In this document: positions 27,230-54,880 of the stretch, piece after piece
Layout: each line of letters starts with the position of its first letter
Numbering within the stretch: position 1 is the stretch's first letter
From: Patescibacteria group bacterium
GTDB lineage: Bacteria; Patescibacteriota; Minisyncoccia; Moranbacterales; JAKLHP01
Reading direction: 5' to 3'
DNA: 64,000 nucleotides
Assembly (NCBI GenBank): GCA_043803385.1
Contig: JAZDKA010000010.1
Coordinates: 989-64,988 of the forward strand
Made by a program: the position numbers and the translations under genes
The notes under the pieces: generated by a model
What the model was told of the DNA's origin: nothing
Databases searched by the model: none
Seen by the model: the letters and a program-made list of their open reading frames with translations, nothing else

Positions 27230-27511
27230 TTATACTATCCCGTTTAATTTCTTTTTTAGAGCTTTTATATCATTATCTATCTTCATTTTATCGTTTTCGA
27301 TCCTGATAATTTCTTGTTTTTTTTCTGAAATTTTAGTTTGAAGCACAGCTAATTCCCTCATTAGCCTCTTGAGGTTCATTTTTTCCGCTTCTATTTCTGT
27401 TTCTTTTTTCTTCAAATCAGAATCAGCAATGGTAATTTCAAATTGAATGCGCTGTCTTTGAGCATGAGCATCTTGTCCGTTTGAGTCTGAATTTTGTGCG
27501 TTATCTTGCAT
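27230..27511 (-). CDS. Hypothetical coiled-coil protein
   Basis: Start at MQDNAQ; heptad-rich sequence. Confidence 0.4.
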   Translation of the reverse strand: MQDNAQNSDSNGQDAHAQRQRIQFEITIADSDLKKKETEIEAEKMNLKRLMRELAVLQTKISEKKQEIIRIENDKMKIDNDIKALKKKLNGIV

Positions 27512-28574
27512 AAAAAATAGTTCCTCCTCCCAACACTTTTCCTTTTTCTGAATAAAATACTGCCGACTGGCCGGGAGTAATGGCTCTTTGCAGTTTTTCA
27601 AATTCAACTTTGTCTTTGTTTATTATAGCACGAAATAATGGACTTTGATAGCGAGTGCGAATAAGTGTTTTGAAAGGAAATTTTGGCTTTTCTTCTACCC
27701 AATTAACTTCTTTCAGGATCATCTTCTTGCTAAAAAGTTCTTTCTTGTCTCCTACAACCAGCCTATTTTTGCCAGAATCCTTCTTTATTACGTAATATGG
27801 ACCGTTTCCGCCCAATTTTATTCCCTTTCTTTGCCCGATAGTGTAAAATGGCAACCCTTCATGATTTCCGAGAACATTTCCTTTTAAATCACAAATTTTG
27901 CCTTTCTTAGGGCTTAAACTTTTTTTCAAAAATGTTTCGAAGCCTTTTTCAGGGATAAAACAAATGTCTTGTGATTCTTTTTTATTATGGACTGGCAAAC
28001 CAAATTTCTTGGCAATTTTTCGAACCTCAATCTTGGTATAATCCCCTAGCGGAAACAAAATTTTTGACAATTGTTTCTGCGATAATTTATATAGAAAATA
28101 ACTTTGATCCTTACTTTTATCCTTCGCTTCAAACAATCCAAAACTTTTAACTTTTAACTTTTCACTTTTAACTTCGCGCGCTTGCGCGTAATGTCCCGTT
28201 GCCACAAAATCCGCTTTTAGAAGCATCATTTTTTCAAATAAAACTTTGAATTTTATTTCTTTATTGCAAACCACGCACGGATTAGGAGTATTCCCCTTTT
28301 TTAATTCATCTAAAAAAAAGTCTACGACTTTCTTTTTAAATTCATTATGAACATTTAAAACATAAAAGGGAATTCCTAAAATTTGAGCAACTTTTCTGGC
28401 GCTTTCAATCGACTCCAGTGAGCAGCACCTATTCTCATAATTTTTGTCCAGCGAAACATCTTTCCAGAAGTTCATAAAAACTCCAGTAACATCATATCCT
28501 TCTTTCTTGAGCATTACGGCAACTACTGAAGAATCAACTCCTCCAGACATTGCGACAATTACTTTCTTATTCAT
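27501..28574 (-). CDS. mnmA: tRNA-specific 2-thiouridylase MnmA
   Basis: PP-loop AMSGGVDSS, conserved Cys, MnmA C-terminal domains. Confidence 0.85.
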   Translation of the reverse strand: MNKKVIVAMSGGVDSSVVAVMLKKEGYDVTGVFMNFWKDVSLDKNYENRCCSLESIESARKVAQILGIPFYVLNVHNEFKKKVVDFFLDELKKGNTPNPCVVCNKEIKFKVLFEKMMLLKADFVATGHYAQAREVKSEKLKVKSFGLFEAKDKSKDQSYFLYKLSQKQLSKILFPLGDYTKIEVRKIAKKFGLPVHNKKESQDICFIPEKGFETFLKKSLSPKKGKICDLKGNVLGNHEGLPFYTIGQRKGIKLGGNGPYYVIKKDSGKNRLVVGDKKELFSKKMILKEVNWVEEKPKFPFKTLIRTRYQSPLFRAIINKDKVEFEKLQRAITPGQSAVFYSEKGKVLGGGTIFYAR

Positions 28575-30447
28575 CCTTGCTTTTTTTAATAAGTTGTCTT
28601 AATTCTTCTAAATTAACCGCCGGTTTTTTGTGGGTTAGTTTGAATTTTTTCGGCGCGACATACTGAAGCTGGGACAAAGCCAATGGTTTTTCCCCTGAAA
28701 CAAAAGCTTTTCTTTCAACTTTTTTTATTTCTTTCGGTTTAGTATTATTATCGCTTGATGAATTAATGATATGATGGCTTGATGACCTGTCCGCAATGCT
28801 TTGTTTAGCAATGCTAGTAAGACCAATGGCTTGATGATTCAAATCTTGCTGCTGATCCTTGGCCTTTGCCATTGCTCTTTGATAATCCTTGAAGCATTCC
28901 TTGCAAAATGTCGGACGCTGTCCATCTGGCTCAAAAGGAACTTGAATCTTTTCTCCGCAAGTATCACAAACGGTGTCATATAATTTCTTTTCTTCACTGA
29001 CTTTATTATTATCGCCTGTAATAATTTGAGGAAGATTAACTTTTGTTTTCGGAATATTTTTTGAAACAGGCTCTTCTTTTTTAGAAGCTACTACTTTTTC
29101 TCTTGGATGAACAACAATTATATTTTCTCTTTGTGGAGCTATTTTAACAGCTTCTCTCGCTTTTTCTTCAACTAGCATTCCGCTCCAGCGTTTTATCTTT
29201 TCTTCAACTTCCTCTGCTTTGGTAGTATATCTTTCCCTGGACACTTTAATCACTTTTTCCTCATTTTCTTTTGTTGTTTTGACGTCAATCGGAGCAAGGG
29301 TTGTTGCCGAAAAAGCGTTTCCGGCAATTCCGTCTATCATCAACTTTAAGTAGATATTATATTTTGGAAGATTTACAATGTCATTCATTAAAAAAATCGG
29401 ATCGAATTCTTTTTCTAATTCTTCCGCATCGCCTGCCCCAACTCTAAAAGTAATCAGGGTTCCGGCATTTCCAAATATTGCATCTTTAACTTTTTCATCT
29501 ATCTGAAGTATGTATTGGTTGGCTAGAATAATATTTAACCTATATTTTCTGGCTTCGGAAAGGATATTAGCGAAAGATTCAGTGGCAAAATTTTGAAATT
29601 CATCCACATAAAGATAAATATCTTTTCTTTCTTCTTCAGGAATATCAACCCTTCCCATTGCCGCTAACTGGATTTTTGTTATCATCATCGCGCCGATAAG
29701 CGCGCTGTTGTCTTCGCCAATCCTTCCTTTGGAAAGATTCATAATCAGTATTTTTTGATTATCCATTACTTCCCGGACATCGAAAGATGATTTGGTCTGC
29801 CCGACAATATTTCGAATCAGAGAACTGGAAAGGAACTGCCCAACTTTGTTTTGAATTGGAGAAATAACTTCTTGAAGCACTCTTTCATTCCATTTAGGGA
29901 ATTCATCTACCCAAAAAGAGCGGACGACCGGATCAGTTATTTTTTCAACTATTCTCTTAAGGTAATTTTTGTCGACCAGCATCCTAGTGACCCCTAAAAG
30001 AGTCGATCCGGGATATTCTAAAAGGGCTAAAATTGCATTTCGAAGTATATATTCAAGCCTTGGCCCCCAAGAATCCGCCCAAATTTTCTTGAAAACTCCA
30101 ACCAGTCCCGAAGCCACTAGATGGCGCTGTTTTGGATCGACGCTTTCCATCACATTAAAAGCAATGGGAAAATCTTGGTCAGCCGGATTAAAATAGATCA
30201 CGTCGTTAATCCTATTTGAAGGAATTGCTTTTATTAGTTTTTCTGCAGTGTCGCCGTGTGGATCAATAAAAACCATTCCTTTTCCGTTCTGAATGTCCTG
30301 AATAGCCATCGTTTCCAAGAGATTCGTCTTTCCCATTCCAGTTTTTCCAATAACATACATATGCCGGCGCCTATCGTCGGTTTTTATTCCAAAAACTCTT
30401 TCTTGGTTTCGAAAATTAGTTTTAGCAAAAAAAGTTATTTCATCCAT
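28567..30447 (-). CDS. VirD4/TraD-like coupling-protein family P-loop ATPase (FtsK/HerA superfamily) with C-terminal zinc ribbon
   Basis: Walker A GKTGMGKT, Walker B IYLYVDEF, TraD-like C-terminal region, CxxC-x17-CxxC. Confidence 0.6.
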   Translation of the reverse strand: MDEITFFAKTNFRNQERVFGIKTDDRRRHMYVIGKTGMGKTNLLETMAIQDIQNGKGMVFIDPHGDTAEKLIKAIPSNRINDVIYFNPADQDFPIAFNVMESVDPKQRHLVASGLVGVFKKIWADSWGPRLEYILRNAILALLEYPGSTLLGVTRMLVDKNYLKRIVEKITDPVVRSFWVDEFPKWNERVLQEVISPIQNKVGQFLSSSLIRNIVGQTKSSFDVREVMDNQKILIMNLSKGRIGEDNSALIGAMMITKIQLAAMGRVDIPEEERKDIYLYVDEFQNFATESFANILSEARKYRLNIILANQYILQIDEKVKDAIFGNAGTLITFRVGAGDAEELEKEFDPIFLMNDIVNLPKYNIYLKLMIDGIAGNAFSATTLAPIDVKTTKENEEKVIKVSRERYTTKAEEVEEKIKRWSGMLVEEKAREAVKIAPQRENIIVVHPREKVVASKKEEPVSKNIPKTKVNLPQIITGDNNKVSEEKKLYDTVCDTCGEKIQVPFEPDGQRPTFCKECFKDYQRAMAKAKDQQQDLNHQAIGLTSIAKQSIADRSSSHHIINSSSDNNTKPKEIKKVERKAFVSGEKPLALSQLQYVAPKKFKLTHKKPAVNLEELRQLIKKSKDE

Positions 30448-30450
30448 AAG

Positions 30451-31734
30451 TTATTTTATCGGCAGATTGGCCGGAGCGCCTCCCAGCTTAGCTTCGACGC
30501 GCGGAATGGAAGGAGCCATAGCGGACATATCAGGCATATGAAAGATAGTGGCAAGTTCCGCTGTGCTCATATCAAATTTTTTTCCAGTCCAATCGCGGTC
30601 AACATATCTTTGAAAAAGAATTCTTTGGCGGTATCTCAATCTTGTTTTCGTCATAAAATACCAGGCGTAGGTCTTGGTTGGATCATAGATACTTATTCCG
30701 GCTGAATGCATATCGGAAAACTGTTTCATTGCTCCCCAAAAACCGCCTACCACAACAGGCTTATCCCAATTATCCCTGGTCCCGATATAAACAAACCTAA
30801 TCTTCGTCTTGAAAAAATTCCTGCCTACATTTTCTTCCAATGCCTTGAGTTTTTCTCTTTCACCGGGCGTTAAGCGGAATTCTAATGGCTGCTCTTCTTT
30901 TTTCTCTTCTGCTGTCGCAAATTCAGGCATTTTGGAGAATCCTTTTATAATATTTCCGAGAACATCTCCAGCGTCATTCATAATTCTTTCGACTGTTGAT
31001 TTTGGCTTTGTTTTTCTCTTGGTTAAAACTTCAATAAATTCTTTTCCCTTTTTTAAAGCCTCTACTTCCTTAATTGGGGTAATAATAATCTGAAACCATA
31101 CCTTCTGGCTGGGCTTAAGATTTCCCAATATTTCCAAAACTGATGACAACGGATCAATCATTTTTCCGGTAACATCTTCCTGAAATCTCATATAAGTCTT
31201 GATTGGCAATGATTCATTTTCCCCAGAAAGTTCAGCATCAGCTCCCCATATTTCCCATTTTTTATTGGGAACTAGTCTGGGAACTTCTTTGGTGTAATCA
31301 TCTGCTTCCACAATTTGAGCATCTGGATACTGGGCATAGATATTGGCTTCTACGAGATCTCTGTCGCTTCTTGGGCCGTGTATATAAAAGTGAATTTTTC
31401 CGCTGTCTCCGACCAACTCCAAAGAAAACCATTCAATAAATCTCCCTTGGATATAAATTTCATTATTGGGAATAGTAGTGATTACTCCGTGGATTCCATT
31501 AAAAAAAGATTCCATTAATTTCGGGCTTTTTTCAATATTCTGGGGAGGAATAATTTCCAAGATAACTTTATCAACTGATCTCCAATATCCTCTGATGACA
31601 TGATCCATCCAAAGCGCTTTGAATGCCCAATATAAAAAAGGAGGCAAAACAAAATACCAAATAGAAGTAAATACTCCTCCAAGCGTAGAAGTTACGTAGG
31701 CAATATCTCTAAAAGAAGAAATTAATATATTCAT
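30451..31734 (-). CDS. Membrane protein co-operonic with the VirD4/TraD-like ATPase
   Basis: 427 aa, N-terminal TM helices; its stop lies 4 bp from the ATPase start. Confidence 0.5.
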   Translation of the reverse strand: MNILISSFRDIAYVTSTLGGVFTSIWYFVLPPFLYWAFKALWMDHVIRGYWRSVDKVILEIIPPQNIEKSPKLMESFFNGIHGVITTIPNNEIYIQGRFIEWFSLELVGDSGKIHFYIHGPRSDRDLVEANIYAQYPDAQIVEADDYTKEVPRLVPNKKWEIWGADAELSGENESLPIKTYMRFQEDVTGKMIDPLSSVLEILGNLKPSQKVWFQIIITPIKEVEALKKGKEFIEVLTKRKTKPKSTVERIMNDAGDVLGNIIKGFSKMPEFATAEEKKEEQPLEFRLTPGEREKLKALEENVGRNFFKTKIRFVYIGTRDNWDKPVVVGGFWGAMKQFSDMHSAGISIYDPTKTYAWYFMTKTRLRYRQRILFQRYVDRDWTGKKFDMSTAELATIFHMPDMSAMAPSIPRVEAKLGGAPANLPIK

Positions 31735-31797
31735 TTTTGTGAATCCGAATTAAATAACGTTGTATCTAAAGGATTTCTTTTTTGCGTTATTTCTTTG

Positions 31798-32844
31798 TTA
31801 TTTCTTTACCGAGTACTCGTTTTTCCCCACTTTTTGGAAAAAATTATTGAGATTTATCATTACGGTTGATTTTTTTACCTTTCTCATTTTCAAAGCTTGC
31901 TCCAAGATATCTTCTTTTCTCATCGGCCTTGAATTTTTTTTCAAAATATCCTCGATTACTTCTCTTACCGTCCCTTTCTCGAAACCCCATTCTGAAAGTG
32001 CATAAGTTCCTCTTCCGACTAAAATAAATCGCTTGTCCCTAATAAGTTCATTATGCACTGTTTGGGGATGGGTTCTTTTCTTTTTATTGAGCTTATATTT
32101 ATCAATTGCTTCTGCAATTTCTTTGAAGTGCATGGGTCTTCCTGTTTCTTTGAGAATTAGGTATATCTTTTCTCTGGTACCCTTCGGAGTTATTTCATCC
32201 CATGATTTGAGCCCCCACTTTTGAAACCTCCCTTTCTTTATTTCAGAGGAAACATCAAGATAATTGAAGAGTTTTTTCGGTTCAATTTCCGTACTTTTTA
32301 AATTAAGTATTTCTTTTACCAATTCCTGATCAGTAAGGGGGCGTTGTTTTTTTTCAAGAATTTCTTTAATCAAATTTTTCGTTTTTCTCCATTCATTTAA
32401 ACTGAACTCCCCATTTGACCAAGATCCTTCAACTTCTCCGAGTATTTCCCTGTACTCAATATTGTCAAAAAGATCAAGAAAAAACTTTAGGGCGCCTCTC
32501 TCTTTTAAATCAGCAGTTTGAGCCATTAATTCTTCTTCTTTAATTATACCACTTTTTTCTTTAATGGTAAACGCCAACTTATTTTTAATTTCCTCAATAA
32601 CATCACTCTTGCCTTTTTTGAGTTTTTTCAAAGTCTCCTTAATTATCTGGCGGACCCTTTCCCTGGTAATATCATACTCCCTGCCTATTTCTTCCAGTGT
32701 TTTGGGATCACCATTTTTTATGCCATATCTTCCCGAAATAATCCCTTTTGGCCTTTCTGGAAATTCCAAAAAAACCCTTTCTAGGGCCGAAAGAAAGCCA
32801 ATATTGGACTTTTTGATAGTGTTTCTAGGATTATTACTTATCAT
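31798..32844 (-). CDS. DNA-binding protein with N-terminal sigma-70 region-4-like HTH and C-terminal HARE-HTH
   Basis: TLEEIGREYDITRERVRQI (sigma region 4.2-like); C-terminal IAEAI...RFILVGRGTYALSEWG (HARE-HTH). Confidence 0.55.
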   Translation of the reverse strand: MISNNPRNTIKKSNIGFLSALERVFLEFPERPKGIISGRYGIKNGDPKTLEEIGREYDITRERVRQIIKETLKKLKKGKSDVIEEIKNKLAFTIKEKSGIIKEEELMAQTADLKERGALKFFLDLFDNIEYREILGEVEGSWSNGEFSLNEWRKTKNLIKEILEKKQRPLTDQELVKEILNLKSTEIEPKKLFNYLDVSSEIKKGRFQKWGLKSWDEITPKGTREKIYLILKETGRPMHFKEIAEAIDKYKLNKKKRTHPQTVHNELIRDKRFILVGRGTYALSEWGFEKGTVREVIEDILKKNSRPMRKEDILEQALKMRKVKKSTVMINLNNFFQKVGKNEYSVKK

Positions 32845-33123
32845 TTATTTGAAGTGTTTTAAAAATTATAAAAACGGATTTAGCCGTCAAATTAGATTAG
32901 CACATAATTGGATATTTTGTCAAGGATTAAGCGCTTTTTGCTATAATACCTGTTATTTATATATTTCTTTAATAAAATAATAAAAAAATCAATCATACTT
33001 ATCGTATGTGCTTTAATATATCCGCATTAATTGTTTAAAACAAGACGATTGGTAAATAAGTATAAATAAAAAACCGGTTATCGATATTTCGTTGATAACC
33101 GGTTAACTCTAATATTGACTTAC

Positions 33124-34200
33124 TTATTCAATTGAGATTCCGAGAATTTTAAACGTCTTTTCTTCAAGCTGTCGAACTCTTTCCCTACTAATATCTAACA
33201 ATAATCCAACAGCTTCAAGAGTTCGATATTGTCCATCAATAATCCCAAACCTATGGACTATAACCCAATACCATTTCGGATACTCATTTTCTAATTTCTT
33301 AAGACGGCCATCTCGATTGGCCAGGACAACAGCCTCCAAGTCATCAAATCGTGACAAAGGAAAGTCTAACGGCAGTTTTTCCAAACCAATCTTCTTTGCC
33401 ATTTCAACACTTTTCTTAGATATTTCAGAAAGGAAATCAGCTTGATTGAAAAAAGAACGAATACGGGAAACTCTTCTTTTGATGTTGCCAGCCATTAATG
33501 TTGCTTCCTTCCCCGCATTGAAAGTCTGATCCACATATTTAATTATAGCATTGACTCTACGAGATACTAATCCTTCGTCTTCTTTGTATCCGAATTCTTT
33601 CGCAACTAATCTCTGGGGAATGAAATCTTTTCCATTGAGACAAAAATACCTTGCGGTAATGAGAGCGGCATCAAATTTAAGAGCAATAAGCTCATCAAAT
33701 AATCTTTTTTGTTCATCTGAAAGGTTCATGAAAAAAAGAGCTTGAGCTTTGTAGAATGGTGAACGATTCTCATTATCCTTCCATGCACATTCTGGTTTCC
33801 AATGGCCAACGATAATTTTTACATTGTGGTGTTTTTCGCAAAGTTCAAGATGAGATTGAAGAAATTTTCGCCTCATGGTTGGGATAACCTGTATTATTTC
33901 AACATTTGGAGCAAGTTCAATAATTTTTTCAATTATCCAGAGAAATGGGTATCCATCAATATGAACGAGAACTGTATTTTCATTAAGGCTTTGAAAGTTG
34001 CCATGGTTTCTACCTCCCCTAGAATGGATTATGGCATAATTTTTTATCTTTTCTGATGTTAAGCAAATTGATCCATGAATCGTTTTCTCGATTCTAGCTA
34101 TCGGCTCTCTCTTTTTATTAACAGAGTGACCTCTGGAATCGCAAAAAGAACAAGAGTCTTCCATCAAGCCATGTTTACATCTTTTCTCGATCTCCATCAC
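33124..34200 (-). CDS. Protein with N-terminal Cys cluster and C-terminal sigma-70 region-4-like HTH
   Basis: CKHG...CSFC near the N-terminus; C-terminal TLEAVGLLLDISRERVRQLEEK. Confidence 0.5.
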   Translation of the reverse strand: MMEIEKRCKHGLMEDSCSFCDSRGHSVNKKREPIARIEKTIHGSICLTSEKIKNYAIIHSRGGRNHGNFQSLNENTVLVHIDGYPFLWIIEKIIELAPNVEIIQVIPTMRRKFLQSHLELCEKHHNVKIIVGHWKPECAWKDNENRSPFYKAQALFFMNLSDEQKRLFDELIALKFDAALITARYFCLNGKDFIPQRLVAKEFGYKEDEGLVSRRVNAIIKYVDQTFNAGKEATLMAGNIKRRVSRIRSFFNQADFLSEISKKSVEMAKKIGLEKLPLDFPLSRFDDLEAVVLANRDGRLKKLENEYPKWYWVIVHRFGIIDGQYRTLEAVGLLLDISRERVRQLEEKTFKILGISIE

Positions 34201-34376
34201 ATTCCTCCTTTTGTATATAATATTTGATTTTATTTCCCGTATATTAGACTAATAAGAGCTAGAAAATAGAGTAATACGAAAAAGTTGCTATGTCAATTTC
34301 TATGAAAAAACATAAACAATAAAAAAATGCCTTAATAGATAAAAAGGAAAGCTCCAAATGAATTTACAAAAATAAT

Positions 34377-36824
34377 TTATCTCCTAATTTCCACTTCAAA
34401 TTCTTTTTCCAATCCGGCAGTTATTTTTTTCATTAACTCATCTATTTCTTTATTTTGAAGAGTCCTGTCTTGAGATCCAAAGATTATATGAAAAGCAAAG
34501 CTAGTTTCTCTTTTTTCCTCAAAATCAAAAATGTCGAATAATTCAACGTCAATAATAAGATCGCCCCCCAATTTTTGGATAACTTCCAAGATGTCATCGA
34601 TTCTGGCGCTTGATCTTGAAATCATGGAAATATCCCTAATTGAAACCGGATACTTTTGAAGCGGCAAATACTCCCTTTCCTTATTGGAAATTGCCATAAG
34701 TTTTTCCATGTCGAATTCAAACATCACCACTCTCTTGTGTATATCAAAGTTTGCCAAAACCAACGGATTTATTTCTCCCATATATCCGAATTTTTCGTTT
34801 TTCCCTTCTTTTTTTATTTCTGCGTATCGAGTAGGATGCCAGAGAGCCGAAAAGCTGTCTTCCGGAGTGCATTCAAAATTATCGAAATAATAATTAATTA
34901 TCCCGAGCTTTTCAAAAAGCGCATCGATGTATCCTTTCATTTCATAGAAATTTTCTGATTTCTTGTCTTTTTCGAGAATCAAAGCTCCTATCAGCATATT
35001 TTTTTCTTCCGGAAGTTTTTTACCATCGGGCCAGAAAACTTTTCCGATTTCAAAAATATGAAGTTCGTTGAAATTTTTGAGATTTTTCCTTATGTTTTTG
35101 AGGATATTCGGAATAAGGCTCACTCTAATCAATGCCTGGCTTGGATTCATTGGGTTTTCGAGTTCCAGATGACTAACCGTTCCGAGCTGGGCAAGTCCTG
35201 CGTCTTTTTGGCTATAAAAAGAGTAATTGTAAACCTCTGAAAATCCGTCGCCCGCCAGGATATTTTTCACCATTCTCTCAAATTTTCTTTTCTCATTTAT
35301 TCTTGGAGATTTAATAGAAACAAGCGGCGCGGATGGTTTTATTTTTTCATAGCCGTATAATCTTCCGATTTCTTCGATTAGATCTTCCTGGGTTCTGATA
35401 TCTATCCTTCTTGTCGGAATTTTCACTATTATTGCTTTTCCCTTTCCTGAAGTTTCAAGTCCTAATAAATTTAATATTTTTATTGCTTCTTTTGCAGATA
35501 TTTTTTCTCCCAGTAATCTATTAACATATTCTAAATCCAATTTAACCTGCCGCGGTTTCACTTTACTTGGATAATTATCAACGATTTCATCAACTTTACC
35601 CCGATGTGGGGACGTAGCGCCAAAAGATTTGATTATTTCAATCACTCTAGCCATCGCAATTTCGCAAAGATTCGGATCAATTCCTTTTTCATAGCGATCG
35701 GATGCTTCGGTCTTAAGATTTAATCTTGTTCGACTCCTTCGTATATTCGTTGCATTAAAATTAGCCGATTCCAAAACAATAGCTGTTGTGTTTTCGCTTA
35801 TACTGGAATCTTCTCCTCCCATAATTCCGGCTAGCGCCAAACCCTTTTTTTCATTAGCTATAACAAGATTCTCCAAAGATAATTCTTTAACAGTTCCATC
35901 TAGCAATTTTATTTCCTCGCCTTCTTTAGCTCTTCGCACTATTATTCGCACTAATTCGCTTTTTATTTGCTCCTTATTCGCGAGTTTTCCAAGATCGAAG
36001 GCATGCAGTGGTTGTCCGAATTCAATCATCACAAAATTAGTCGCGTCAACAATATTATTTATCGGCTTTATTCCTAAAGCCAACAGTCTATTTTTTACCC
36101 AAGCTGGAGAAGGTTGAATTTTTATATTTTCTAAAACCGCTCCGATATATCGAGGACATAGTTTTTTATCTTTTATTTCTATTTCAAGCCGGGAAGCTTT
36201 TTGAGCAGAAAGTCTTAGTTTATTATAAAAAGGATCTATTTTCTTGTTATTTAAAGCTGCAACTTCTCGAGCCATTCCAACATGGCTTAGCGCATCATGA
36301 CCTCTGTCGGGAAGAACCTTAATTTCAAAAATCGTATCATTGAGTTCCAAGACTTCTGAAACTTTTTCTCCAACTTTAGCATCTTTTTCAAGTATTAAAA
36401 TTCCGCTATGATCTTTGCCAAGTCCCAATTCATCTTCCGCGCAAAGCATTCCAAAAGATTTTACTCCGCGAATTTCCGCTTCTTTAATTTCTAATCCTCC
36501 GGAAAGTTTCGCACCAACCAAAGCCACTGGCACTTTATCGCCAATTTTTATATTGTTTGCGCCGCAGACAATTGTAAGAGTATCCGGTATTTTGTATTTG
36601 GTATTTTGTATTTTTTCTACAAAAACTCTTACAATTTGCAATTTATCAGCGTTGGGGTGTTTTTCTATATCCTTTATTTGCCCGACGACAACACCCTCTA
36701 ATCCCTTTCCTTTTTTCTCAATTCCTTCCACTTCAAAAGAATGCATCATTAGTGCATCTGCTACTTGTTCAGGACTTTTATTTATCTTGCTTATTTCCTT
36801 AAGCCAGCTATAGGAATACTTCAT
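34377..36824 (-). CDS. pheT: Phenylalanyl-tRNA synthetase beta subunit
   Basis: 815 aa; tRNA-binding, B3/4, B5 and FDX-ACB domain order. Confidence 0.9.
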   Translation of the reverse strand: MKYSYSWLKEISKINKSPEQVADALMMHSFEVEGIEKKGKGLEGVVVGQIKDIEKHPNADKLQIVRVFVEKIQNTKYKIPDTLTIVCGANNIKIGDKVPVALVGAKLSGGLEIKEAEIRGVKSFGMLCAEDELGLGKDHSGILILEKDAKVGEKVSEVLELNDTIFEIKVLPDRGHDALSHVGMAREVAALNNKKIDPFYNKLRLSAQKASRLEIEIKDKKLCPRYIGAVLENIKIQPSPAWVKNRLLALGIKPINNIVDATNFVMIEFGQPLHAFDLGKLANKEQIKSELVRIIVRRAKEGEEIKLLDGTVKELSLENLVIANEKKGLALAGIMGGEDSSISENTTAIVLESANFNATNIRRSRTRLNLKTEASDRYEKGIDPNLCEIAMARVIEIIKSFGATSPHRGKVDEIVDNYPSKVKPRQVKLDLEYVNRLLGEKISAKEAIKILNLLGLETSGKGKAIIVKIPTRRIDIRTQEDLIEEIGRLYGYEKIKPSAPLVSIKSPRINEKRKFERMVKNILAGDGFSEVYNYSFYSQKDAGLAQLGTVSHLELENPMNPSQALIRVSLIPNILKNIRKNLKNFNELHIFEIGKVFWPDGKKLPEEKNMLIGALILEKDKKSENFYEMKGYIDALFEKLGIINYYFDNFECTPEDSFSALWHPTRYAEIKKEGKNEKFGYMGEINPLVLANFDIHKRVVMFEFDMEKLMAISNKEREYLPLQKYPVSIRDISMISRSSARIDDILEVIQKLGGDLIIDVELFDIFDFEEKRETSFAFHIIFGSQDRTLQNKEIDELMKKITAGLEKEFEVEIRR

Positions 36825-48901: not shown

Positions 48902-49861
48902 TTATTTGAGTTCTTTTTCTATTATTCTTGCAACCGGTAAAAAAGTCTCTACCAGATACAAAGTATATTTTTCGGGAACATATTTTATCGGAACATGATA
49001 GAGATCAACCCAGATGTGGCTATAGATAGCATACAAAATTGATTTTTTCAGATATGCCTCCTCTTCTTTGCTCATCCTTCTTTTTCGATCATAACCAGCA
49101 ATAAATTCTTTTAAAAGCAAGCTATTTAATTTTCCTTTAAAGCAACAATTAAACATTATAGTCTTACCTACATCAACCATCAGTGGACCTAAATAGAAAT
49201 TCCCAAAATCAACAACGGCTGATAATTTTTCACCGACAAAAAGTTCATTTTTAAATCCAATATCCACATGAATCGGCCCGATGGGAAGCTTTGAGGTGGG
49301 ACGATTATCTATCACTCCTTTTTCAATTATTTTAACGACTGATTTTAAGATTGGATTTGTTTGCCTATAAGCATAAGGCTTCATTTTTTTCATTATATCC
49401 GGGCTAAGATCATAAAATCTTCTTCTTGTTTCCAGAATCTTTTTGAATTTAACACCGCGCTTGTGAAATTCTCCCAAAAACAGTCCGAGGTTATGAGCCA
49501 TTTTCGAAGTCATTTTTTTAGGCCATTTTCCGGAATAAAATTTATCAACCGTAACCCATCCGTCTTTAAATTTTTCAATATAATTTCCTTTGGCTGATTT
49601 CAGATATATCGGAACTGACATTCCTTTTAATGTTTCCAGCATATCTATTTCATACTGCAACGATTCTCTTGATTTGGCTGAAATCGTCTTTCTATTTGAT
49701 AGCTTATTTTTAGAAATGACAAATTTTCCCTTTGTGGTAATTGCTGAAACTTTTAAACATTTTCCATATCCTCGATAAAGATAAGATAATTTTTTTATCT
49801 TTCCCAGCCTATACATTTCGGCCAAAATTTGATATTCTTCATTGGTATAAAAATCAATCAT
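48902..49861 (-). CDS. Kinase-like phosphotransferase (APH/ChoK family)
   Basis: HVD...N catalytic loop, DFG motif. Confidence 0.6.
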   Translation of the reverse strand: MIDFYTNEEYQILAEMYRLGKIKKLSYLYRGYGKCLKVSAITTKGKFVISKNKLSNRKTISAKSRESLQYEIDMLETLKGMSVPIYLKSAKGNYIEKFKDGWVTVDKFYSGKWPKKMTSKMAHNLGLFLGEFHKRGVKFKKILETRRRFYDLSPDIMKKMKPYAYRQTNPILKSVVKIIEKGVIDNRPTSKLPIGPIHVDIGFKNELFVGEKLSAVVDFGNFYLGPLMVDVGKTIMFNCCFKGKLNSLLLKEFIAGYDRKRRMSKEEEAYLKKSILYAIYSHIWVDLYHVPIKYVPEKYTLYLVETFLPVARIIEKELK

Positions 49862-50874
49862 ATTTTTGTATTGAATTTTCTTCTATATTTGGCAAGTTGA
49901 TAATTTTCTTTGTCCGAAACGAGAACCTTTTCAGGATTCAGAACTTCAACTTCCATATCCTTGAGATCAGGATTTTTTTTGATCATTTCCTTCATTTCTT
50001 CTATGTCATTTTTTCCAATAAACACCCCCTTAACGTTATATTCTTTGTGATTTGATTCAAAAACAGATCCGCTTCCAATGTCCCCCTTCAGAGAATCTCC
50101 GACTACTATTAAATTTCTAGGCATACTAATTCCCATTTTTTTCAATTTATCAGCAAGAAATTCCATGGCTCCATCCTTTCCATGTCCTTCAAAATCTTTT
50201 TGATTGGCCATAGTTAAGAAAGATTCTCCTAAATTTAAAATTTTACAGATGAACTTGGCGAATGGAGGATCATTAGCTGTCATAATAACCATAGGAATGC
50301 CCAGTCTTTTATAAAGATTTACCAAATGGAAAACTGGCTTTATTTTTGCTTGTTCAAATACTTCCGGATTTTCTTTATCAATTCCTTCTGCTATCTCTGC
50401 TGATTTTGCGCTATGCTTCATGGAACATTCAGCTGCTTCATCATGTGCTTCCCCGGATTCATCGACTTCTTTTTTGTGGGTTTGGAGCCAATCTTCATAT
50501 GTTTTGAGATCTTTCCATTCACTGTGGCCATATTTATAGATTCCAAGCATGCGGTGAAAAACACGATAAGTCGTTCCCAGATGAAGGCTGCTCAAATATT
50601 CCTTTTCAATTTCATCTAATAGCTCGCCGTCCAAATTTTCTTTGTCTTCCAACATTTCTTTAAAAAGTTCTTTAATAGCCGGACCATGAGTAAAACCACA
50701 TTCGGCTAGAGTTTTATCGATATCAAAAAAAGCGATAGCCTTCGGAACCCCGTTTTCTAGAGTTATTTTTATTTCTTTATTTTCACCGCTCTTTGCCTCT
50801 ATGTCAGATTTGATGCCAACATATGCTTTTTCCTTTTCCTCTGAAATCGCTGGCCACTCATTTGAATTAGACAT
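49858..50874 (-). CDS. HAD-superfamily hydrolase
   Basis: FDIDKTL (DxDxT) motif I, GDSLKGD motif IV. Confidence 0.65.
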   Translation of the reverse strand: MSNSNEWPAISEEKEKAYVGIKSDIEAKSGENKEIKITLENGVPKAIAFFDIDKTLAECGFTHGPAIKELFKEMLEDKENLDGELLDEIEKEYLSSLHLGTTYRVFHRMLGIYKYGHSEWKDLKTYEDWLQTHKKEVDESGEAHDEAAECSMKHSAKSAEIAEGIDKENPEVFEQAKIKPVFHLVNLYKRLGIPMVIMTANDPPFAKFICKILNLGESFLTMANQKDFEGHGKDGAMEFLADKLKKMGISMPRNLIVVGDSLKGDIGSGSVFESNHKEYNVKGVFIGKNDIEEMKEMIKKNPDLKDMEVEVLNPEKVLVSDKENYQLAKYRRKFNTKI

Positions 50875-50899
50875 AATTTTGATATTTTTATGATTATTG

Positions 50900-51808
50900 T
50901 TATTTTACTTCCATCGTTTTGCCTTTGGTTGTCACCATTATTTTTTTATCATTAGTTTCACCATCTTCGACTTTAAACGCAATGCTTTCACAGTGTTTCA
51001 TGGACTCTCCAAAATTCTTATTTAGAAAATAGAGGAAAGAATTTTCATGGCTAAAACCCAGAATTTTGATATTTTTTTCAGGATTTTGTTCATTTATTTT
51101 TTCCTGGGCAAATTTTATAAGTCGCAGCATCTTCATAAACTTCAATTTATAGACTGTTTCGGCAGATTTAACATTGGGAAATATTTTTTCAATTTCTTCC
51201 GAGTAAGCGACATAATTATCGCCCCAAGTCCCCTTATTGTCAGCTTCAACTATTTTTCTGGCCACTGCCCATTTTTCCTTGGTTTCGGGGGAAACTTTAT
51301 CTCGAATTTCAGATGGAGCCTCTTCAAGATAATTATCGGGCTTGAAAATTCTTTCTCGTATCACATTCTCCAAATGATCCAGGGTTAAACATCTTATCTT
51401 TCGGATTTCTCCTTCTCCGATTTCTTCGGCTTTATTCGGGCGATTATCGGGAAATTTCTCACTTTTTTCTCGAGGCTGGATTATTTCAAAGCCTTTCCTC
51501 CTGGCCACATCCAGATAAATCTTCGCTGTTTGGGCTGCTCTGACTAAATCGCTAGAAACAAAATACAAGGCATCTTTTTGGGGATCTAAATTACTAAAAA
51601 ACTCTTCGGCTTTTTCATGTGCCAACTTAATTCCTTCCGGGGTTAAATCAGAATTGAACCATTGTTTATCCGAGCTGGGAGTAGCTTCCGGGTTATCCGA
51701 TTTTACAATTCCTTTGTGCAATTGCCCTTCAGCCTTGCTATGGCGTATGGCAAAGAATTCATCATTCTCTTCCTCTCCCCTGTTTTGATATATTTTTTCG
51801 AATGTCAT
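50900..51808 (-). CDS. Histidine phosphatase superfamily protein
   Basis: IRHSKAEG (RHG-like) near the N-terminus; GFSHEN second His. Confidence 0.45.
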   Translation of the reverse strand: MTFEKIYQNRGEEENDEFFAIRHSKAEGQLHKGIVKSDNPEATPSSDKQWFNSDLTPEGIKLAHEKAEEFFSNLDPQKDALYFVSSDLVRAAQTAKIYLDVARRKGFEIIQPREKSEKFPDNRPNKAEEIGEGEIRKIRCLTLDHLENVIRERIFKPDNYLEEAPSEIRDKVSPETKEKWAVARKIVEADNKGTWGDNYVAYSEEIEKIFPNVKSAETVYKLKFMKMLRLIKFAQEKINEQNPEKNIKILGFSHENSFLYFLNKNFGESMKHCESIAFKVEDGETNDKKIMVTTKGKTMEVK

Positions 51809-51840
51809 AGGTTTTTTATTATTTCATTTATGCGTTGATA

Positions 51841-52401
51841 TTATTTGAGCTCTTTTTTAATTTCTTCCAATAAATATTCGAATTTTGTAAATTCTGCTTC
51901 GGAATTGATGTGTCCGCCGTTTTTGATAATGATAAGATTTGTTCGGAGATAATTTGCCAAACTTTTTCCAAGTTCCAGCGGAACGTATGGATCGTTGTCC
52001 GAATTGAAAACATGGAATTTTTTGCAATTTTTTTGTATTTTGCTCCAATTAAAATTTCTGTTGACGAAAGTCTTGTTTATTTCATCAAATTTTGGATTAT
52101 TGAGTTCCCCTACCCATCCCGAAATAAAAAACGCTGACTTAATTGGATTTTTAAGATTTTCAATAACATTCAGCAAAAATCCCACTCCGATGCTATGCCC
52201 AACTATAATCGTTTCACTATTAAAATATTGCTTATATTTGGCTAAAATATTCAGCCAATTTTCCAGCGATTGGTTTTTGGGAGTTGGAAATTTGGGAATA
52301 AAAACATTTTCGCCTAATTTTTTAAGCTCATTTTTGAGCCAAGGAAACCAGTTTTCTCCAGGATTTCCATAGGCTCCATGGATTATGAAAATATTCTGCA
52401 T
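51841..52401 (-). CDS. Alpha/beta hydrolase, YdeN/RBBP9-like serine esterase
   Basis: GHSIG nucleophile elbow; 186 aa. Confidence 0.7.
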   Translation of the reverse strand: MQNIFIIHGAYGNPGENWFPWLKNELKKLGENVFIPKFPTPKNQSLENWLNILAKYKQYFNSETIIVGHSIGVGFLLNVIENLKNPIKSAFFISGWVGELNNPKFDEINKTFVNRNFNWSKIQKNCKKFHVFNSDNDPYVPLELGKSLANYLRTNLIIIKNGGHINSEAEFTKFEYLLEEIKKELK

Positions 52402-52623
52402 ATCTTTATTCTAGCACACAAAAATTCAAAATAAAAAAGCGGTTAGCTGTGAAGAATTAAACCCAACTAACCGCATGATATGAAGCTCCTGGAAAAATAC
52501 TCCGAAAGGTCTGGAGTTGAACCATGACCATTTGAGGGTAAATGAGCCCTTCTTAGGAGACCGCTTCCTTTCTTTTTCCAAGCTGCCAGAAAGAGCTGTT
52601 TAATCTTGATAATTTTATATAAA

Positions 52624-52905
52624 TTATTGCTCTATTTGCTGAAGTATTTTTATTATTATTTTCCCAACTAATGCATAAACGACTATGGCCAAGAGAGTGG
52701 TGAAGTCAAAAGTGAACCTGCCCAGATGGAGAGGAGAAATAAATGATGCGAACGGGCTTACCAATGGCGCCGACGTCTTGTTTATCCAGGAAACGATTGA
52801 CGAAGAACTTCCGATGCCAAAAAATGCCAGGATAAATTTTGCCGAAAGAAGAAATTCGACTATGCTTAATATAATGTTAATAAAAGTTCTAAGTAAACCT
52901 AACAT
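52624..52905 (-). CDS. YggT-like small membrane protein
   Basis: 93 aa, 2 TM helices, size and topology of the YggT family. Confidence 0.4.
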   Translation of the reverse strand: MLGLLRTFINIILSIVEFLLSAKFILAFFGIGSSSSIVSWINKTSAPLVSPFASFISPLHLGRFTFDFTTLLAIVVYALVGKIIIKILQQIEQ

Positions 52906-53027
52906 AAATTTGTGTTTATTATTTTTCTATTAAAGGATCGGCTATATGTTAATTATACACCAAATCGCTGAAAAGCACACTTTAATTATTTGAGATTCAT
53001 GATTTCTTTTGTGAAATCTGTAATTTT

Positions 53028-53072
53028 TTAATTTGTATCATAATTCTACAGCCGTAGGAAAATGATACATTC
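53028..53072. repeat. Copy C of the palindromic module
   Basis: TTAATTTGTATCATAATTCTACAGCCGTAGGAAAATGATACATT. Confidence 0.7.
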
Positions 53073-53107
53073 GGAAGTGCCATTTTTTATTTAGGGAAAA
53101 TAAAAAA

Positions 53108-53150
53108 GAGGGACTCAATTGCAAATTATTTCTGCAATTAAATCCCTCGC
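53108..53150 (-). terminator. Intrinsic terminator of guaA
   Basis: Long imperfect hairpin GAGGGA...AATTGCA...TGCAATT...TCCCTC plus TTTTTTATTTT on the minus strand. Confidence 0.55.
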
Positions 53151-53169
53151 TGGTCAACGTAGTAATCGC

Positions 53170-54705: not shown

Positions 54706-54880
54706 TTTTCCTCCTTATTTTATGAAATTGTAAAGTTACTTATCCCATCCTAATTTGCTCCTTAAATCTTTTAATAAAAGTTAACTTAAAAACGCTGAAA
54801 AAGCAAGTTTCGGGATAGAAATGTGCTATAATAAGAAAAACAACGAAAAACAACTAAATAAATGGAAAGGCGGGTGAATT

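What the first reader, a model, noticed from the sequence alone, without database searches (positions are those of the whole stretch)
28567..34200. VirD4/TraD-like ATPase with membrane partner, flanked by two sigma-region-4 HTH proteins
A 626-aa P-loop ATPase is translationally coupled to a 427-aa membrane protein; its stop is 4 bp from the ATPase start. The ATPase has Walker A GKTGMGKT, Walker B IYLYVDEF, a TraD-like C-terminal region and a CxxC-x17-CxxC zinc ribbon. Immediately upstream on the same strand sit two proteins with textbook sigma-70 region 4.2 helix-turn-helix sequences (TLEEIGREYDITRERVRQI and TLEAVGLLLDISRERVRQLEEK). The first also ends in a HARE-HTH (RFILVGRGTYALSEWG), as in the RNAP delta subunit. 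No other type IV secretion components are nearby. This reads as a minimal DNA-translocation (uptake or export) module with its own transcription factors, not a canonical conjugation system.
Basis: partly seen in the sequence, partly recalled or inferred. Interest (0 to 1): 0.7.

Follow-up and report, generated by a model that had tools for sequence, protein, structure and literature searches.

The report
Split coupling ATPase of Patescibacteria
The ATPase and its "membrane partner" are two halves of one protein, a coupling-type motor ATPase special to the ultra-small Patescibacteria, and in this lineage it travels with one conserved DNA-binding protein; the genes exist as described, but this is not a self-contained DNA pump.

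Summary
The four genes exist as described, in a housekeeping stretch of a Patescibacteria (CPR) genome.

- **ATPase (626 aa).** It belongs to the TrwB/TraD/VirD4 coupling-protein (T4CP) family. It has no membrane domain of its own.
- **One protein in other lineages.** In other CPR lineages, and in Bacillus phage G, the partner and the ATPase are a single protein. The break lies exactly at the domain junction.
- **Conserved neighbour.** The order sigma-region-4/HARE-HTH gene, then DUF8128, then ATPase holds in 79 of 79 testable related loci, whatever the flanking genes. It recurs in Parcubacteria and in Saccharibacteria. Published Tn-seq there calls the HTH gene essential and the ATPase dispensable.
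- **Second sigma-r4 protein.** It is absent from all 80 related loci, so it is a local insertion.
- **Link to secretion.** The closest fused relatives, in Microgenomates-type genomes, sit beside the type IV secretion operon in 4 of 4 loci.

Best reading: a split Patescibacteria-type coupling ATPase that probably serves a secretion system encoded elsewhere. An exapted, secretion-independent DNA motor is not excluded. I rate it a new variant of a known kind, of moderate interest.

The parts
31798..32844 (-). Gene for a 348-aa multi-HTH protein: sigma-70 region 4, a middle domain, a HARE-HTH and a further winged helix. It is the first gene of the conserved trio.
   Evidence: Pfam: Sigma70_r4 2.1e-14 and HARE-HTH 1.3e-18. 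The r4 part matches region 4 of primary sigma factors in the PDB. The gene lies directly upstream of DUF8128 in 79 of 79 testable loci, and also in L081, L083 and the P0385 contig. The counterpart SEML1_0294 has the same domain positions and is essential.
32596..32787 (-). Sigma-70 region 4 (4.1 + 4.2) HTH, aa 20-83 of the r4/HARE protein.
   Evidence: phmmer against the PDB matches SigA/HrdB/RpoD region 4 at 1.6e-11 over aa 22-82. No region 2 is present.
31987..32169 (-). HARE-HTH domain, aa 226-286.
   Evidence: Pfam HARE-HTH 1.3e-18. NCBIfam RNAP_delt_lowGC scores 54.7 bits, above its cut-off of 42.
30451..31734 (-). Gene for the 427-aa DUF8128 protein: an N-terminal hydrophobic helix, a VirB4-N-terminal-domain-like fold and a disordered C-terminal tail. 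It is the detached N-terminal half of a Patescibacteria-type coupling protein.
31606..31704 (-). Predicted membrane-anchor helix of DUF8128, aa ~11-43 (IAYVTSTLGGVFTSIWYFVLPPFLYWAFKALWM).
   Evidence: The Kyte-Doolittle 19-residue maximum is 1.31 here and has a median of 1.63 in 32 homologues. AF2 models aa 2-53 as one long helix. No dedicated TM predictor was available.
30454..30558 (-). Conserved C-terminal region of DUF8128: the E-L-A-T-x-x-H-x-P-D motif followed by a disordered tail that ends in (A/P)PxNLP(I/V). It is a candidate docking peptide for the ATPase.
   Evidence: Columns E393, L394, A395, H399, P401, D402, A420, P421, N423, L424 and P425 are invariant. pLDDT is below 50 for aa 407-427. 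The end motif stays at the extreme C-terminus even behind 100-150-aa acidic insertions in L081, L083 and L084.
28567..30447 (-). Gene for the 626-aa soluble T4CP-family ATPase: TrwB/TraD-like core, linker, treble-clef zinc ribbon and basic tail.
   Evidence: Pfam and NCBIfam. The PDB sequence hits that pass E 0.01 are only TrwB and DotL. No hydrophobic segment is present. The core is 80.7% identical (median) across 76 related loci. It is 55-58% identical to the C-terminal half of fused proteins.
30325..30348 (-). Walker A, GKTGMGKT (aa 34-41).
   Evidence: Read from the translation. The columns are invariant in 29 homologues.
29596..29622 (-). Walker B, DIYLYVDEF (aa 276-284).
   Evidence: Read from the translation. 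D282 and E283 are invariant.
28894..28968 (-). CxxC-x17-CxxC treble-clef zinc ribbon (aa 494-518). Among the homologues inspected, only the split type has it.
   Evidence: zf_Tbcl_2 2e-12 and TIGR04272 4.9e-13. The motif is absent from all 10 fused relatives inspected and present in the split-type protein P0506. The tail, aa 526-626, has net charge +9.

Best explanation
Genes 30451-31734 and 28567-30447 together encode one functional unit: a Patescibacteria-type type IV coupling protein (T4CP) that has been split into two polypeptides.

**What the pieces are**
- Canonical T4CPs have a two-helix membrane domain at the N-terminus. This family instead carries a ~380-aa module, DUF8128, made of one hydrophobic anchor helix and a domain with the fold of the VirB4 N-terminal domain.
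- The motor is a TrwB/TraD-like ATPase, a family that forms hexamers. In this split subtype it has gained a C-terminal zinc ribbon and a basic tail.

**How it most likely works (inferred)**
- DUF8128 sits in the membrane and holds the ATPase ring beneath it. Its conserved ELATxxHxPD region and terminal (A/P)PxNLP peptide are the likely contacts.
- The result would be a VirB4-like two-tier assembly with a coupling-protein motor.
- Its ancestral job is to recruit and energise substrates for the Patescibacterial type IV secretion system. That system is encoded elsewhere in this genome type, but right next to the fused gene in Microgenomates-type genomes.

**The third gene**
- The upstream sigma-region-4/HARE-HTH protein is probably co-transcribed with the pair.
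- I take it to be a DNA-binding and perhaps RNA-polymerase-binding factor. It may also bring nucleic acid to the motor's zinc-ribbon tail, as TraM does for TraD in the F plasmid.
- Its essentiality in Saccharibacteria shows that it has a wider role than serving this ATPase.

**Shown versus inferred**
- Shown: family membership of the ATPase, the predicted fold of the partner, the split-versus-fused relationship, the synteny, and the secretion-system linkage of close relatives.
- Inferred: physical complex formation, docking to the secretion system, the nature of the substrate, and any interaction with the HTH protein.

The second r4 protein (33124-34200) is not part of the unit.
For: **ATPase family**
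- TrwB_AAD_bind scores 48.3 bits, above its 20.5 cut-off; SXT_TraD gives 1.7e-15.
- TrwB and DotL are the only PDB sequence matches that pass E 0.01.
- The ATPase has no hydrophobic segment.

**Partner fold**
- Foldseek: the top 9 PDB hits are all TrwK/VirB4.
- BFVD hits: gp156 at 1e-16 and the VirB4-like gp155 at 1e-7.

**Split versus fused (Rosetta stone)**
- Both proteins hit the same 824-position profile, phrog_5156, at consecutive positions: partner 31-286, ATPase 407-817.
- Partner aa 21-427 aligns with aa 8-382 of P0432. ATPase aa 2-450 aligns with aa 377-829 of fused P0432-P0436 at 55-58% identity.
- hhalign of the partner profile against phage G gp156 gives 97% probability.

**Link to secretion**
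- In a neighbour-joining tree the split type groups with the fused ~930-aa and ~727-aa types (84% bootstrap).
- The ~727-aa type lies divergently next to PrgI/VirB3, a TraC-like gene and VirB4 in 4 of 4 loci.

**Synteny of the trio**
- The order holds in 79 of 79 loci, while pheT is upstream in only 17 of 62 and mnmA downstream in only 22 of 61.
- The trio genes are the only ORF clusters present in more than 70 of the 80 loci.
- The trio also occurs in L081, L083 and the P0385 contig.
- In S. epibionticum, SEML1_0294 and SEML1_0293 are adjacent on the same strand.

**Literature**
- VirD4-type homologues occur in 2,918 of 3,035 Patescibacteria genomes, mostly away from virB4 (PMC12102498).
Against: - The window itself holds no secretion-system gene.
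- In Paceibacteria and Saccharibacteria the gene is unlinked from virB4. Only 148 of 5,713 T4CP homologues lie near virB4 (PMC12102498).
- T4CP homologues are more widespread than VirB4: 96% against 80% of genomes.
- The presumed Saccharibacteria counterpart SEML1_0293 is non-essential, while the secretion system is essential.
- The ATPase core is more conserved than pheS, pheT or tyrS, which is unusual for a coupling protein.
- The zinc ribbon and the HTH neighbour are specific to the unlinked subtype, which suggests a changed function.
- Orthology of SEML1_0293 to the window pair rests on domain coordinates and gene order only. I had no sequence for it.
- The AF2 model of the ATPase was poor (pLDDT 52.9), so the all-alpha domain and ring assembly were not checked structurally.
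- The tree is a simple neighbour-joining tree of 30 sequences.
Confidence: 0.55

Rival explanations
1. Exapted, secretion-independent nucleic-acid motor. In Paceibacteria and Saccharibacteria the split or r4/HARE-linked subtype has left the type IV secretion system. It now works as a membrane-tethered DNA (or RNA) translocase or remodeller. One option is the missing ATP motor of natural transformation, alongside ComEC, ComFC and DprA. Another is handling DNA bound by the r4/HARE protein.
For: - The gene is unlinked from virB4 here and in most genomes. T4CP homologues occur in 2,918 genomes against 2,417 with VirB4.
- SEML1_0293 is dispensable, like comEC, comF and dprA, whereas the secretion system is essential.
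- The ATPase core is extremely conserved: median 80.7% identity, against 62.8% for pheS.
- The subtype has its own additions: a zinc ribbon with a +9 tail and a conserved DNA-binding neighbour.
- The authors of PMC12102498 themselves say that exaptation 'cannot be ruled out'.
Against: - No competence gene is linked in any of the 80+ loci.
- The nearest fused relatives are linked to the secretion system in 4 of 4 loci.
- The partner provides no channel.
- The counts in the paper pool two paralogous clades, so they do not show that this clade persists without VirB4.
- There is no experimental hint about the substrate.
Confidence: 0.3
2. One reading: a minimal, self-sufficient DNA uptake or export module, made of an ATPase and a membrane channel partner, that is controlled by its own two transcription factors.
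For: - The genes are tightly packed on one strand.
- The ATPase belongs to the T4CP family.
- Both upstream proteins carry sigma region 4.
Against: - The partner has one weak hydrophobic helix and a VirB4-N-terminal-domain fold. It is the N-terminal domain of the same protein in other lineages, so there is no sign of a pore.
- The second HTH gene occurs in 0 of 80 related loci and is a separate transcription unit.
- The conserved HTH gene is essential while the ATPase is not.
Confidence: 0.07
3. The HTH link is synteny only. On this view the r4/HARE-HTH protein is a general, essential RNA-polymerase-associated factor of Patescibacteria, combining a delta-subunit-like HARE-HTH with a sigma region 4. 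Its adjacency to the coupling ATPase reflects co-expression or frozen gene order, not a shared mechanism. This concerns only the HTH part of the unit, so it can hold together with the best explanation or with the exapted-motor rival; its confidence is not meant to add up with theirs.
For: - SEML1_0294 is essential while SEML1_0293 is not.
- The r4 part is closest to primary-sigma region 4, and the HARE-HTH passes the RNAP-delta NCBIfam cut-off.
- The pair occurs without the HTH gene nearby in L084 and in all fused-type loci L088-L093.
Against: - Adjacency holds in 79 of 79 Moraniibacteriota loci despite variable flanks.
- It recurs in Parcubacteria and Saccharibacteria. That is hard to explain by drift in genomes whose surrounding gene order is scrambled.
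Confidence: 0.35
4. Anti-phage defence or mobile-element cargo: a HerA- or MADS-mad8-like ATPase with an MzaA-like sigma protein.
For: - PADLOC: mad8 3.9e-20 for the ATPase, and MzaA 1.5e-8 and 1e-5 for the r4 domains.
- Fused homologues occur in Bacillus phages.
Against: - The mad profiles were built from HHpred alignments against the PDB, so they are generic.
- No other MADS or MZA gene is present, and the partner has no PADLOC hit.
- The genes are near-universal, highly conserved and sit among housekeeping genes.
- A scan of IMG/VR viral contigs with the partner profile found nothing.
Confidence: 0.03

Closest known systems
Type IV coupling proteins TrwB (R388), TraD (F, SXT) and VirD4/DotL
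   Same: It shares the HerA/FtsK-superfamily ATPase core with Walker A and B motifs. The Pfam TrwB_AAD_bind match is above threshold over aa 23-338, with TraG-D_C as well. TrwB and DotL are the only PDB sequence matches that pass E 0.01.
   Different: There is no N-terminal two-helix membrane domain; a VirB4-N-terminal-domain-like module supplied in trans takes its place. The protein has a C-terminal treble-clef zinc ribbon. No relaxase or VirB genes are nearby, and the context is chromosomal housekeeping. The NCBIfam equivalog scores are far below their cut-offs (56.5 against 366 for SXT_TraD).
Fused DUF8128-T4CP proteins of other Patescibacteria, for example Berkelbacteria US94_C0010G0005 (P0436), Gottesmanbacteria P0477, and probably S. 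epibionticum SEML1_0293
   Same: The two modules occur in the same order. The ATPase is 53-58% identical and the N-terminal module 26-28% identical. They fall in the same clade of the tree.
   Different: They are one polypeptide of 726-1142 aa, and the ones inspected have no zinc ribbon. The ~727-aa type lies beside the secretion operon. The Berkelbacteria type sits in tandem with a clade II paralogue. No r4/HARE neighbour is present, except in Saccharibacteria.
VirB4 (TrwK) and the split VirB4 arrangements: TrsD/TrsE of pSK41/pGO1, and TraC-like + VirB4 in Patescibacteria
   Same: The predicted fold of DUF8128 matches the VirB4 N-terminal domain. The gene order, N-domain protein immediately upstream of the ATPase, mirrors trsD-trsE.
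   Different: No sequence similarity to TrsD or TraC-like proteins is detectable. The ATPase is of T4CP type, not VirB4 type: TIGR00929 gives E 1e-4 and 20.5 bits against a cut-off of 643.
Bacillus phage G gp156, Bacillus phage JL and probably SPO1 gp27.4 (PHROG family phrog_5156, function unknown)
   Same: They are fused homologues of both halves: phrog_5156 is hit by both proteins, hhalign gives 97% to gp156, and the folds match.
   Different: They are phage-encoded and only 29% identical in the ATPase. They lack the N-terminal anchor helix, although gp156 has an internal hydrophobic segment. They branch outside all Patescibacteria sequences in the tree. The N-terminal match of SPO1 gp27.4 is not significant.
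RNA polymerase delta subunit (RpoE) and sigma-70 region 4
   Same: The HARE-HTH passes the RNAP_delt_lowGC cut-off. Region 4 resembles that of primary sigma factors.
   Different: There is no sigma region 2, so it is not a sigma factor. It lacks the acidic tail of delta, with a net charge of +22. It carries two further winged-helix domains, according to the DPAM parse of SEML1_0294.
TraD-TraM of the F plasmid (functional analogy only; from my own knowledge)
   Same: In both, a coupling ATPase has a C-terminal extension and is paired with a small DNA-binding protein.
   Different: There is no homology between the r4/HARE protein and TraM. No oriT or relaxase is present. No interaction has been tested.

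Membership tests
Type IV coupling protein (VirD4/TraD/TrwB) | P-loop ATPase core of the HerA/FtsK superfamily with intact Walker A and B motifs | tested here: met
   GKTGMGKT and DIYLYVDEF are invariant in 29 homologues.
Type IV coupling protein (VirD4/TraD/TrwB) | Significant match to T4CP-specific profiles and structures | tested here: met
   TrwB_AAD_bind scores 48.3 bits against a cut-off of 20.5. TrwB and DotL are the only PDB hits that pass E 0.01.
Type IV coupling protein (VirD4/TraD/TrwB) | N-terminal transmembrane domain (two helices) on the same polypeptide | tested here: not met
   The ATPase has no hydrophobic segment: its Kyte-Doolittle maximum is 1.31, inside the core. Walker A starts at aa 34.
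Type IV coupling protein (VirD4/TraD/TrwB) | All-alpha domain inserted in the ATPase core | tested here: inconclusive
   A helical stretch, aa ~105-215, lies between Walker A and Walker B, and the Pfam model spans it. The AF2 model was of low confidence (pLDDT 52.9).
Type IV coupling protein (VirD4/TraD/TrwB) | Encoded with a type IV secretion system and/or a relaxase | tested here: not met
   None is present in the 64-kb window. The feature is met for close fused relatives, in 4 of 4 loci. The rest of the genome could not be searched.
Type IV coupling protein (VirD4/TraD/TrwB) | Reaches the NCBIfam equivalog or subfamily cut-offs (TraD, VirD4-like CD1115) | tested here: not met
   56.5 bits against 366, 42.5 against 250, and 41.2 against 647.
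DUF8128 (Pfam PF26449) | Match to the family model | tested here: met
   All 120 listed homologues, up to 74% identical, carry precomputed PF26449, which is named DUF8128. This is indirect: the local Pfam copy lacks the model, so the window protein itself gave no hit.
VirB4 / TrsD-type N-terminal domain | Fold of the VirB4 N-terminal domain | tested here: met
VirB4 / TrsD-type N-terminal domain | Sequence-level homology to VirB4, TrsD or TraC-like proteins | tested here: not met
   No Pfam CagE_TrbE_VirB hit. hhalign against pSK41 TrsD gives E 0.39, and against a Patescibacteria TraC-like protein E 0.082. The partner profile has no PDB sequence hit.
   No FtsK or HerA structure is matched by sequence. 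The DUF87 hit covers only the P-loop, aa 27-66, at 27 bits.
Sigma-70 family sigma factor | Region 2 (-10 recognition and core binding) together with region 4 | tested here: not met
   Only Sigma70_r4 is found in both HTH proteins. All the sigma NCBIfam hits are confined to the r4 domain and score far below their cut-offs.
RNA polymerase delta subunit (RpoE) | N-terminal HARE-HTH followed by a long acidic C-terminal tail | tested here: not met
   The HARE-HTH is present (54.7 bits against 42), but it lies at aa 226-286 of a basic protein with net charge +22.
MADS defence system (mad8) | Co-occurrence with the other mad genes, including the methyltransferase | tested here: not met
   Only the generic ATPase profile hits. 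The neighbours are housekeeping genes.

The most novel reading that the evidence does not exclude
The r4/HARE-HTH, DUF8128 and zinc-ribbon ATPase trio would be a Patescibacteria-wide machine that does not depend on type IV secretion. In it, a conjugation-derived motor tethered to the membrane acts on DNA presented by an essential protein related to RNA-polymerase subunits. One candidate role is the still-unidentified ATP motor of natural transformation in these organisms. Another is a link between transcription or the nucleoid and DNA traffic at the host-contact membrane.
Probability: 0.2. Interest if true: 0.8.

Novelty: new variant of a known kind. Interest (0 to 1): 0.55.

Why it matters
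Patescibacteria are a very large group of host-dependent bacteria. Their type IV secretion system is essential in the one species tested, yet a 2024 review calls its role 'completely unknown' (PMC11665869). Published surveys note thousands of orphan VirD4-like genes in these genomes and leave their function open (PMC12102498).

This analysis gives those genes an anatomy:
- The coupling ATPase of this phylum carries a VirB4-N-terminal-domain-like module (DUF8128) in place of the usual membrane domain.
- The family exists in fused and split forms and falls into two paralogous clades. One clade corresponds to an essential Saccharibacteria gene and the other probably to a dispensable one.
- One subtype is locked to an essential sigma-r4/HARE-HTH protein.

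This turns three 'Patescibacteria-enriched families of unknown function' into a concrete hypothesis. It can be tested in the genetically tractable Southlakia epibionticum. It also links the family to unexplained proteins of large Bacillus phages (phage G gp156, probably SPO1 gp27.4).

Tried and rejected
- **Sequence link from the partner to TrsD (pSK41) or to a Patescibacteria TraC-like protein.** hhalign was negative. Only the fold links DUF8128 to VirB4.
- **Partner profile against PDB sequences.** Nothing was found.
- **AF2 model of the ATPase.** pLDDT was 52.9, too poor to use, so no fold search was run on it.
- **AlphaFold-database fold search.** The library was not available.
- **hhalign of the ATPase profile against single sequences of pSK41 TrsE and TrsK.** Only P-loop or weak matches came back, which is uninformative.
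- **IMG/VR viral contigs scanned with the partner profile.** No relatives were found.
- **Defence-system reading.** The PADLOC mad8 and MzaA hits were rejected as generic domain matches.
- **FtsK or HerA classification.** Rejected.
- **Sigma-70-type promoter scan of 27300-34500.** It gave 28 sites against 22.3 expected, which is not informative. A TTGACA at 32918-32923 upstream of the r4/HARE gene has only a weak -10 partner, so I make no claim for it.
- **Sequence of S. epibionticum SEML1_0293.** I could not obtain it, so its orthology rests on Pfam coordinates, length and gene order.
- **SPO1 gp27.4 N-terminus against the partner profile.** The alignment is colinear but not significant (E 0.073).
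- **Microcystis phage Mwe-JY31 protein.** It matches the ATPase only and has no DUF8128 part.
- **Literature search for DUF8128 or PF26449.** It returned no paper.

Full report
**1. What is in the sequence**

The window is a stretch of a Patescibacteria (CPR) genome. The ATPase is 100% identical to an NCBI MAG protein from a 'Patescibacteria group bacterium'.

Four ORFs lie head to tail on the minus strand:
- 33124-34200, 358 aa, called sigB below.
- 31798-32844, 348 aa, called the r4/HARE protein below.
- 30451-31734, 427 aa, the partner.
- 28567-30447, 626 aa, the ATPase.

- The partner's TAA stop is followed by CTT and then the ATPase ATG.
- The ATPase stop overlaps the start of mnmA by 8 nt.
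- The neighbours on both sides are housekeeping genes: mnmA, rplU, recR and dnaB on one side; pheT, pheS, tyrS and secDF on the other.
- No VirB4, VirB3/PrgI, TraC-like or pilin gene was found anywhere in the 64 kb (further ORFs).
- sigB ends in a strong hairpin followed by a U-run (dG -15.2 kcal/mol, z -3.9), so it is a transcription unit of its own.

**2. The ATPase**

- Pfam gives TrwB_AAD_bind (8.9e-13, aa 23-338, above threshold), TraG-D_C, DUF87 (P-loop only) and the treble-clef zinc finger zf_Tbcl_2.
- NCBIfam gives TraD- and VirD4-type models first, all far below their equivalog cut-offs.
- Among all PDB sequences, only the coupling proteins TrwB and DotL pass E 0.01, with a single query and with a profile. 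No FtsK, HerA or VirB4 structure is matched.
- The protein has no hydrophobic segment. Its Walker A starts at residue 34, so the N-terminal membrane domain that defines canonical coupling proteins is missing.
- After the core come a linker, the CxxC-x17-CxxC ribbon and a tail with net charge +9.
- The AF2 model was too poor to use.

**3. The partner**

- The local Pfam copy finds nothing. All 120 listed homologues carry PF26449, which is DUF8128.
- A profile search of 1.84 billion representative proteins finds 2,853 clusters at E <= 0.001.
- An AF2 model (pLDDT 77.6) shows one long N-terminal helix, an alpha/beta domain and a disordered tail.
- Foldseek agrees: its top 9 PDB hits are all TrwK chains.
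- The hydrophobic stretch is borderline in this protein (Kyte-Doolittle 1.31) but clearer across homologues (median 1.63).

**4. The two proteins are one protein elsewhere**

- Both hit the same 824-position PHROG profile, phrog_5156, at consecutive positions: partner at 31-286 (2.8e-10) and ATPase at 407-817 (1.1e-63).
- Bacillus phage G gp156 (825 aa) matches the ATPase by tblastn (9e-43). It matches the partner profile by hhalign (97%, E 7.9e-11) and by fold (1e-16).
- A search seeded with gp156 surfaced many Patescibacteria proteins of 725-1142 aa that carry PF26449 and PF10412 together. They come from Berkelbacteria, Falkowbacteria, Saccharibacteria and Gottesmanbacteria.
- By blastp, window partner aa 21-427 aligns with aa 8-382 of P0432. 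Window ATPase aa 2-450 aligns with aa 377-829 of P0432-P0436 at 55-58% identity.
- The split therefore falls exactly at the domain junction.
- The zinc ribbon occurs only in the split type among the sequences inspected.

**5. Conserved neighbourhood**

- A scan of one genome per species returned 80 loci, mostly Moraniibacteriota.
- The order r4/HARE, then partner, then ATPase holds in 79 of 79 loci that have upstream sequence. sigB is found in 0 of 80.
- The flanks vary: pheT is upstream in 17 of 62 loci and mnmA downstream in 22 of 61.
- The trio genes are the only ORF clusters present in more than 70 loci.
- The trio recurs in more distant lineages, where the partner is only ~31% identical: L081, L083 and the P0385 contig.
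- One locus, L084, has the pair without the HTH gene.
- Across the 80 loci, median identity is 80.7% for the ATPase core. It is 62.8% for pheS, 52.8% for pheT, 52.4% for mnmA, 41.7% for tyrS, 46.3% for the partner and 45.3% for the r4/HARE protein.

**6. Published genetics**

- In Southlakia epibionticum (Saccharibacteria), SEML1_0294 is 349 aa with Sigma70_r4 at 27-72 and HARE-HTH at 225-283. It lies immediately upstream, on the same strand, of SEML1_0293.
- SEML1_0293 is 921 aa, with TrwB_AAD_bind at 402-719.
- Both belong to Patescibacteria-enriched core families.
- Tn-seq calls SEML1_0294 essential and SEML1_0293 non-essential. Reads for SEML1_0293 fall over passages, from 5817 to 2940 to 1372 (PMC10633639, Tables S1 and S2).
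- I could not obtain the SEML1_0293 sequence, so its orthology to the window pair is inferred.
- PMC12102498 reports VirD4-type homologues in 2,918 of 3,035 Patescibacteria genomes. Only 148 of 5,713 lie near virB4, and VirB4 is present in 2,417 genomes. The authors state that exaptation 'cannot be ruled out'.

**7. Two clades, and a link to secretion**

- A neighbour-joining tree of the ATPase cores (30 sequences, 200 bootstraps) gives clade I: the split type, the fused ~930-aa type and the fused ~727-aa type (84%).
- Clade II has 94% support. Phage G gp156 branches outside all Patescibacteria sequences.
- Clade II includes a Saccharibacteria protein whose context (YifB, small ORF, gene, CLIPPER-domain protein, gyrB, gyrA) matches that of SEML1_0142. 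That gene is essential.
- The fused ~727-aa clade I genes lie divergently next to the PrgI/VirB3, TraC-like and VirB4 operon near dnaN in 4 of 4 loci.
- Berkelbacteria-type loci carry a clade II and a clade I gene in tandem.

**8. Interpretation**

- The pair is a split Patescibacteria-type coupling protein. Its membrane-proximal module is VirB4-like, not the usual two-helix domain.
- The window's subtype is unlinked from that system, has gained a zinc ribbon and is locked to the r4/HARE gene. It may therefore have been exapted. I put this rival at 0.3.
- The r4/HARE protein has no sigma region 2 and is strongly basic, so it is neither a sigma factor nor a delta subunit. Its essentiality argues for a wider role than regulating this operon.
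- The 'minimal self-contained DNA pump with two transcription factors' reading is not supported.
- Defence-system hits (mad8, MzaA) are generic domain matches.

**9. Novelty**

- Known already: the orphan T4CP homologues, DUF8128 as a Pfam entry, the enrichment of these families in Patescibacteria, and the Tn-seq calls.
- Not found in the papers searched: the VirB4-like fold of DUF8128; its role as the N-terminal module of these coupling proteins; the split and fused forms; the two clades; the trio synteny; and the phage relatives.
- I rate this a new variant of a known kind, of moderate interest.

Noticed in passing
window 33124-34200 (-), with a hairpin at about 33070-33104: The second sigma-r4 protein (358 aa) has an N-terminal Cys/His cluster (CKHGLMEDSCSFCDSRGH) and r4 only at its C-terminus. 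It is absent from all 80 related loci and has its own terminator-like hairpin. It looks like a lineage-specific insertion between pheT and the r4/HARE gene. Its function is unknown.
   Followed up: partly
window 30445-30453: The partner and ATPase ORFs are in the same reading frame, separated only by TAA-CTT. A tblastn search with a fused homologue (L091:2899-5394) runs straight through the stop, from 31545 to 29191, at 34% identity over 792 columns. The split is old, since the gaps vary from 10 to 529 nt in relatives. The shared frame here is probably chance.
   Followed up: partly
L091:2899-8784 and L092:2432-8348: Berkelbacteria-type genomes carry two fused DUF8128-T4CP paralogues (clade II, ~830 aa, then clade I, ~930 aa) in tandem. 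They are separated by a ~175-aa ORF and preceded by a ~107-aa ORF. This hints at a duplication origin or at joint action.
   Followed up: no
L085:1196-5338 (Bacillus phage G gp155-gp156); L086:2747-6284 (SPO1 gp27.4-gp27.3): Large Bacillus phages encode fused relatives of the pair (phrog_5156, function unknown). In phage G the gene follows a VirB4-like ATPase (gp155: P-loop_TraG, AAA_10). In SPO1 it sits beside gp27.3, annotated 'replication initiation by nicking', and a partition protein.
   Followed up: partly
L081:4473-6203, L083:6001-7584, L084:6001-7629: In distant lineages DUF8128 has a 100-150-aa acidic, low-complexity insertion near its end. The (A/P)PxNLP motif appears both before the insertion and again at the extreme C-terminus, as if the terminal peptide must stay free.
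   Followed up: no
L088:5651-8838 and L089:5519-8490: Clade II fused genes, of the essential SEML1_0142 type, are each preceded by a small unannotated ORF (114-159 aa) with a gap of 2-5 nt. SEML1_0141, in the same position, is essential in the published Tn-seq.
   Followed up: no
window 27230-27607 (-): A small coiled-coil ORF overlaps the 3' end of mnmA. ORFs that look like it lie downstream of mnmA in 19 of the related loci; its membership of that cluster was judged by eye, not tested. It has no Pfam hit.
   Followed up: no
window 48902-63260: The far end of the window holds a Fic/DOC protein (62208-63260), two APH-type kinases (61107-62174 and 48902-49861), a histidine kinase (59663-61060), and HAD and histidine-phosphatase-like genes. 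None is related to the finding.
   Followed up: no
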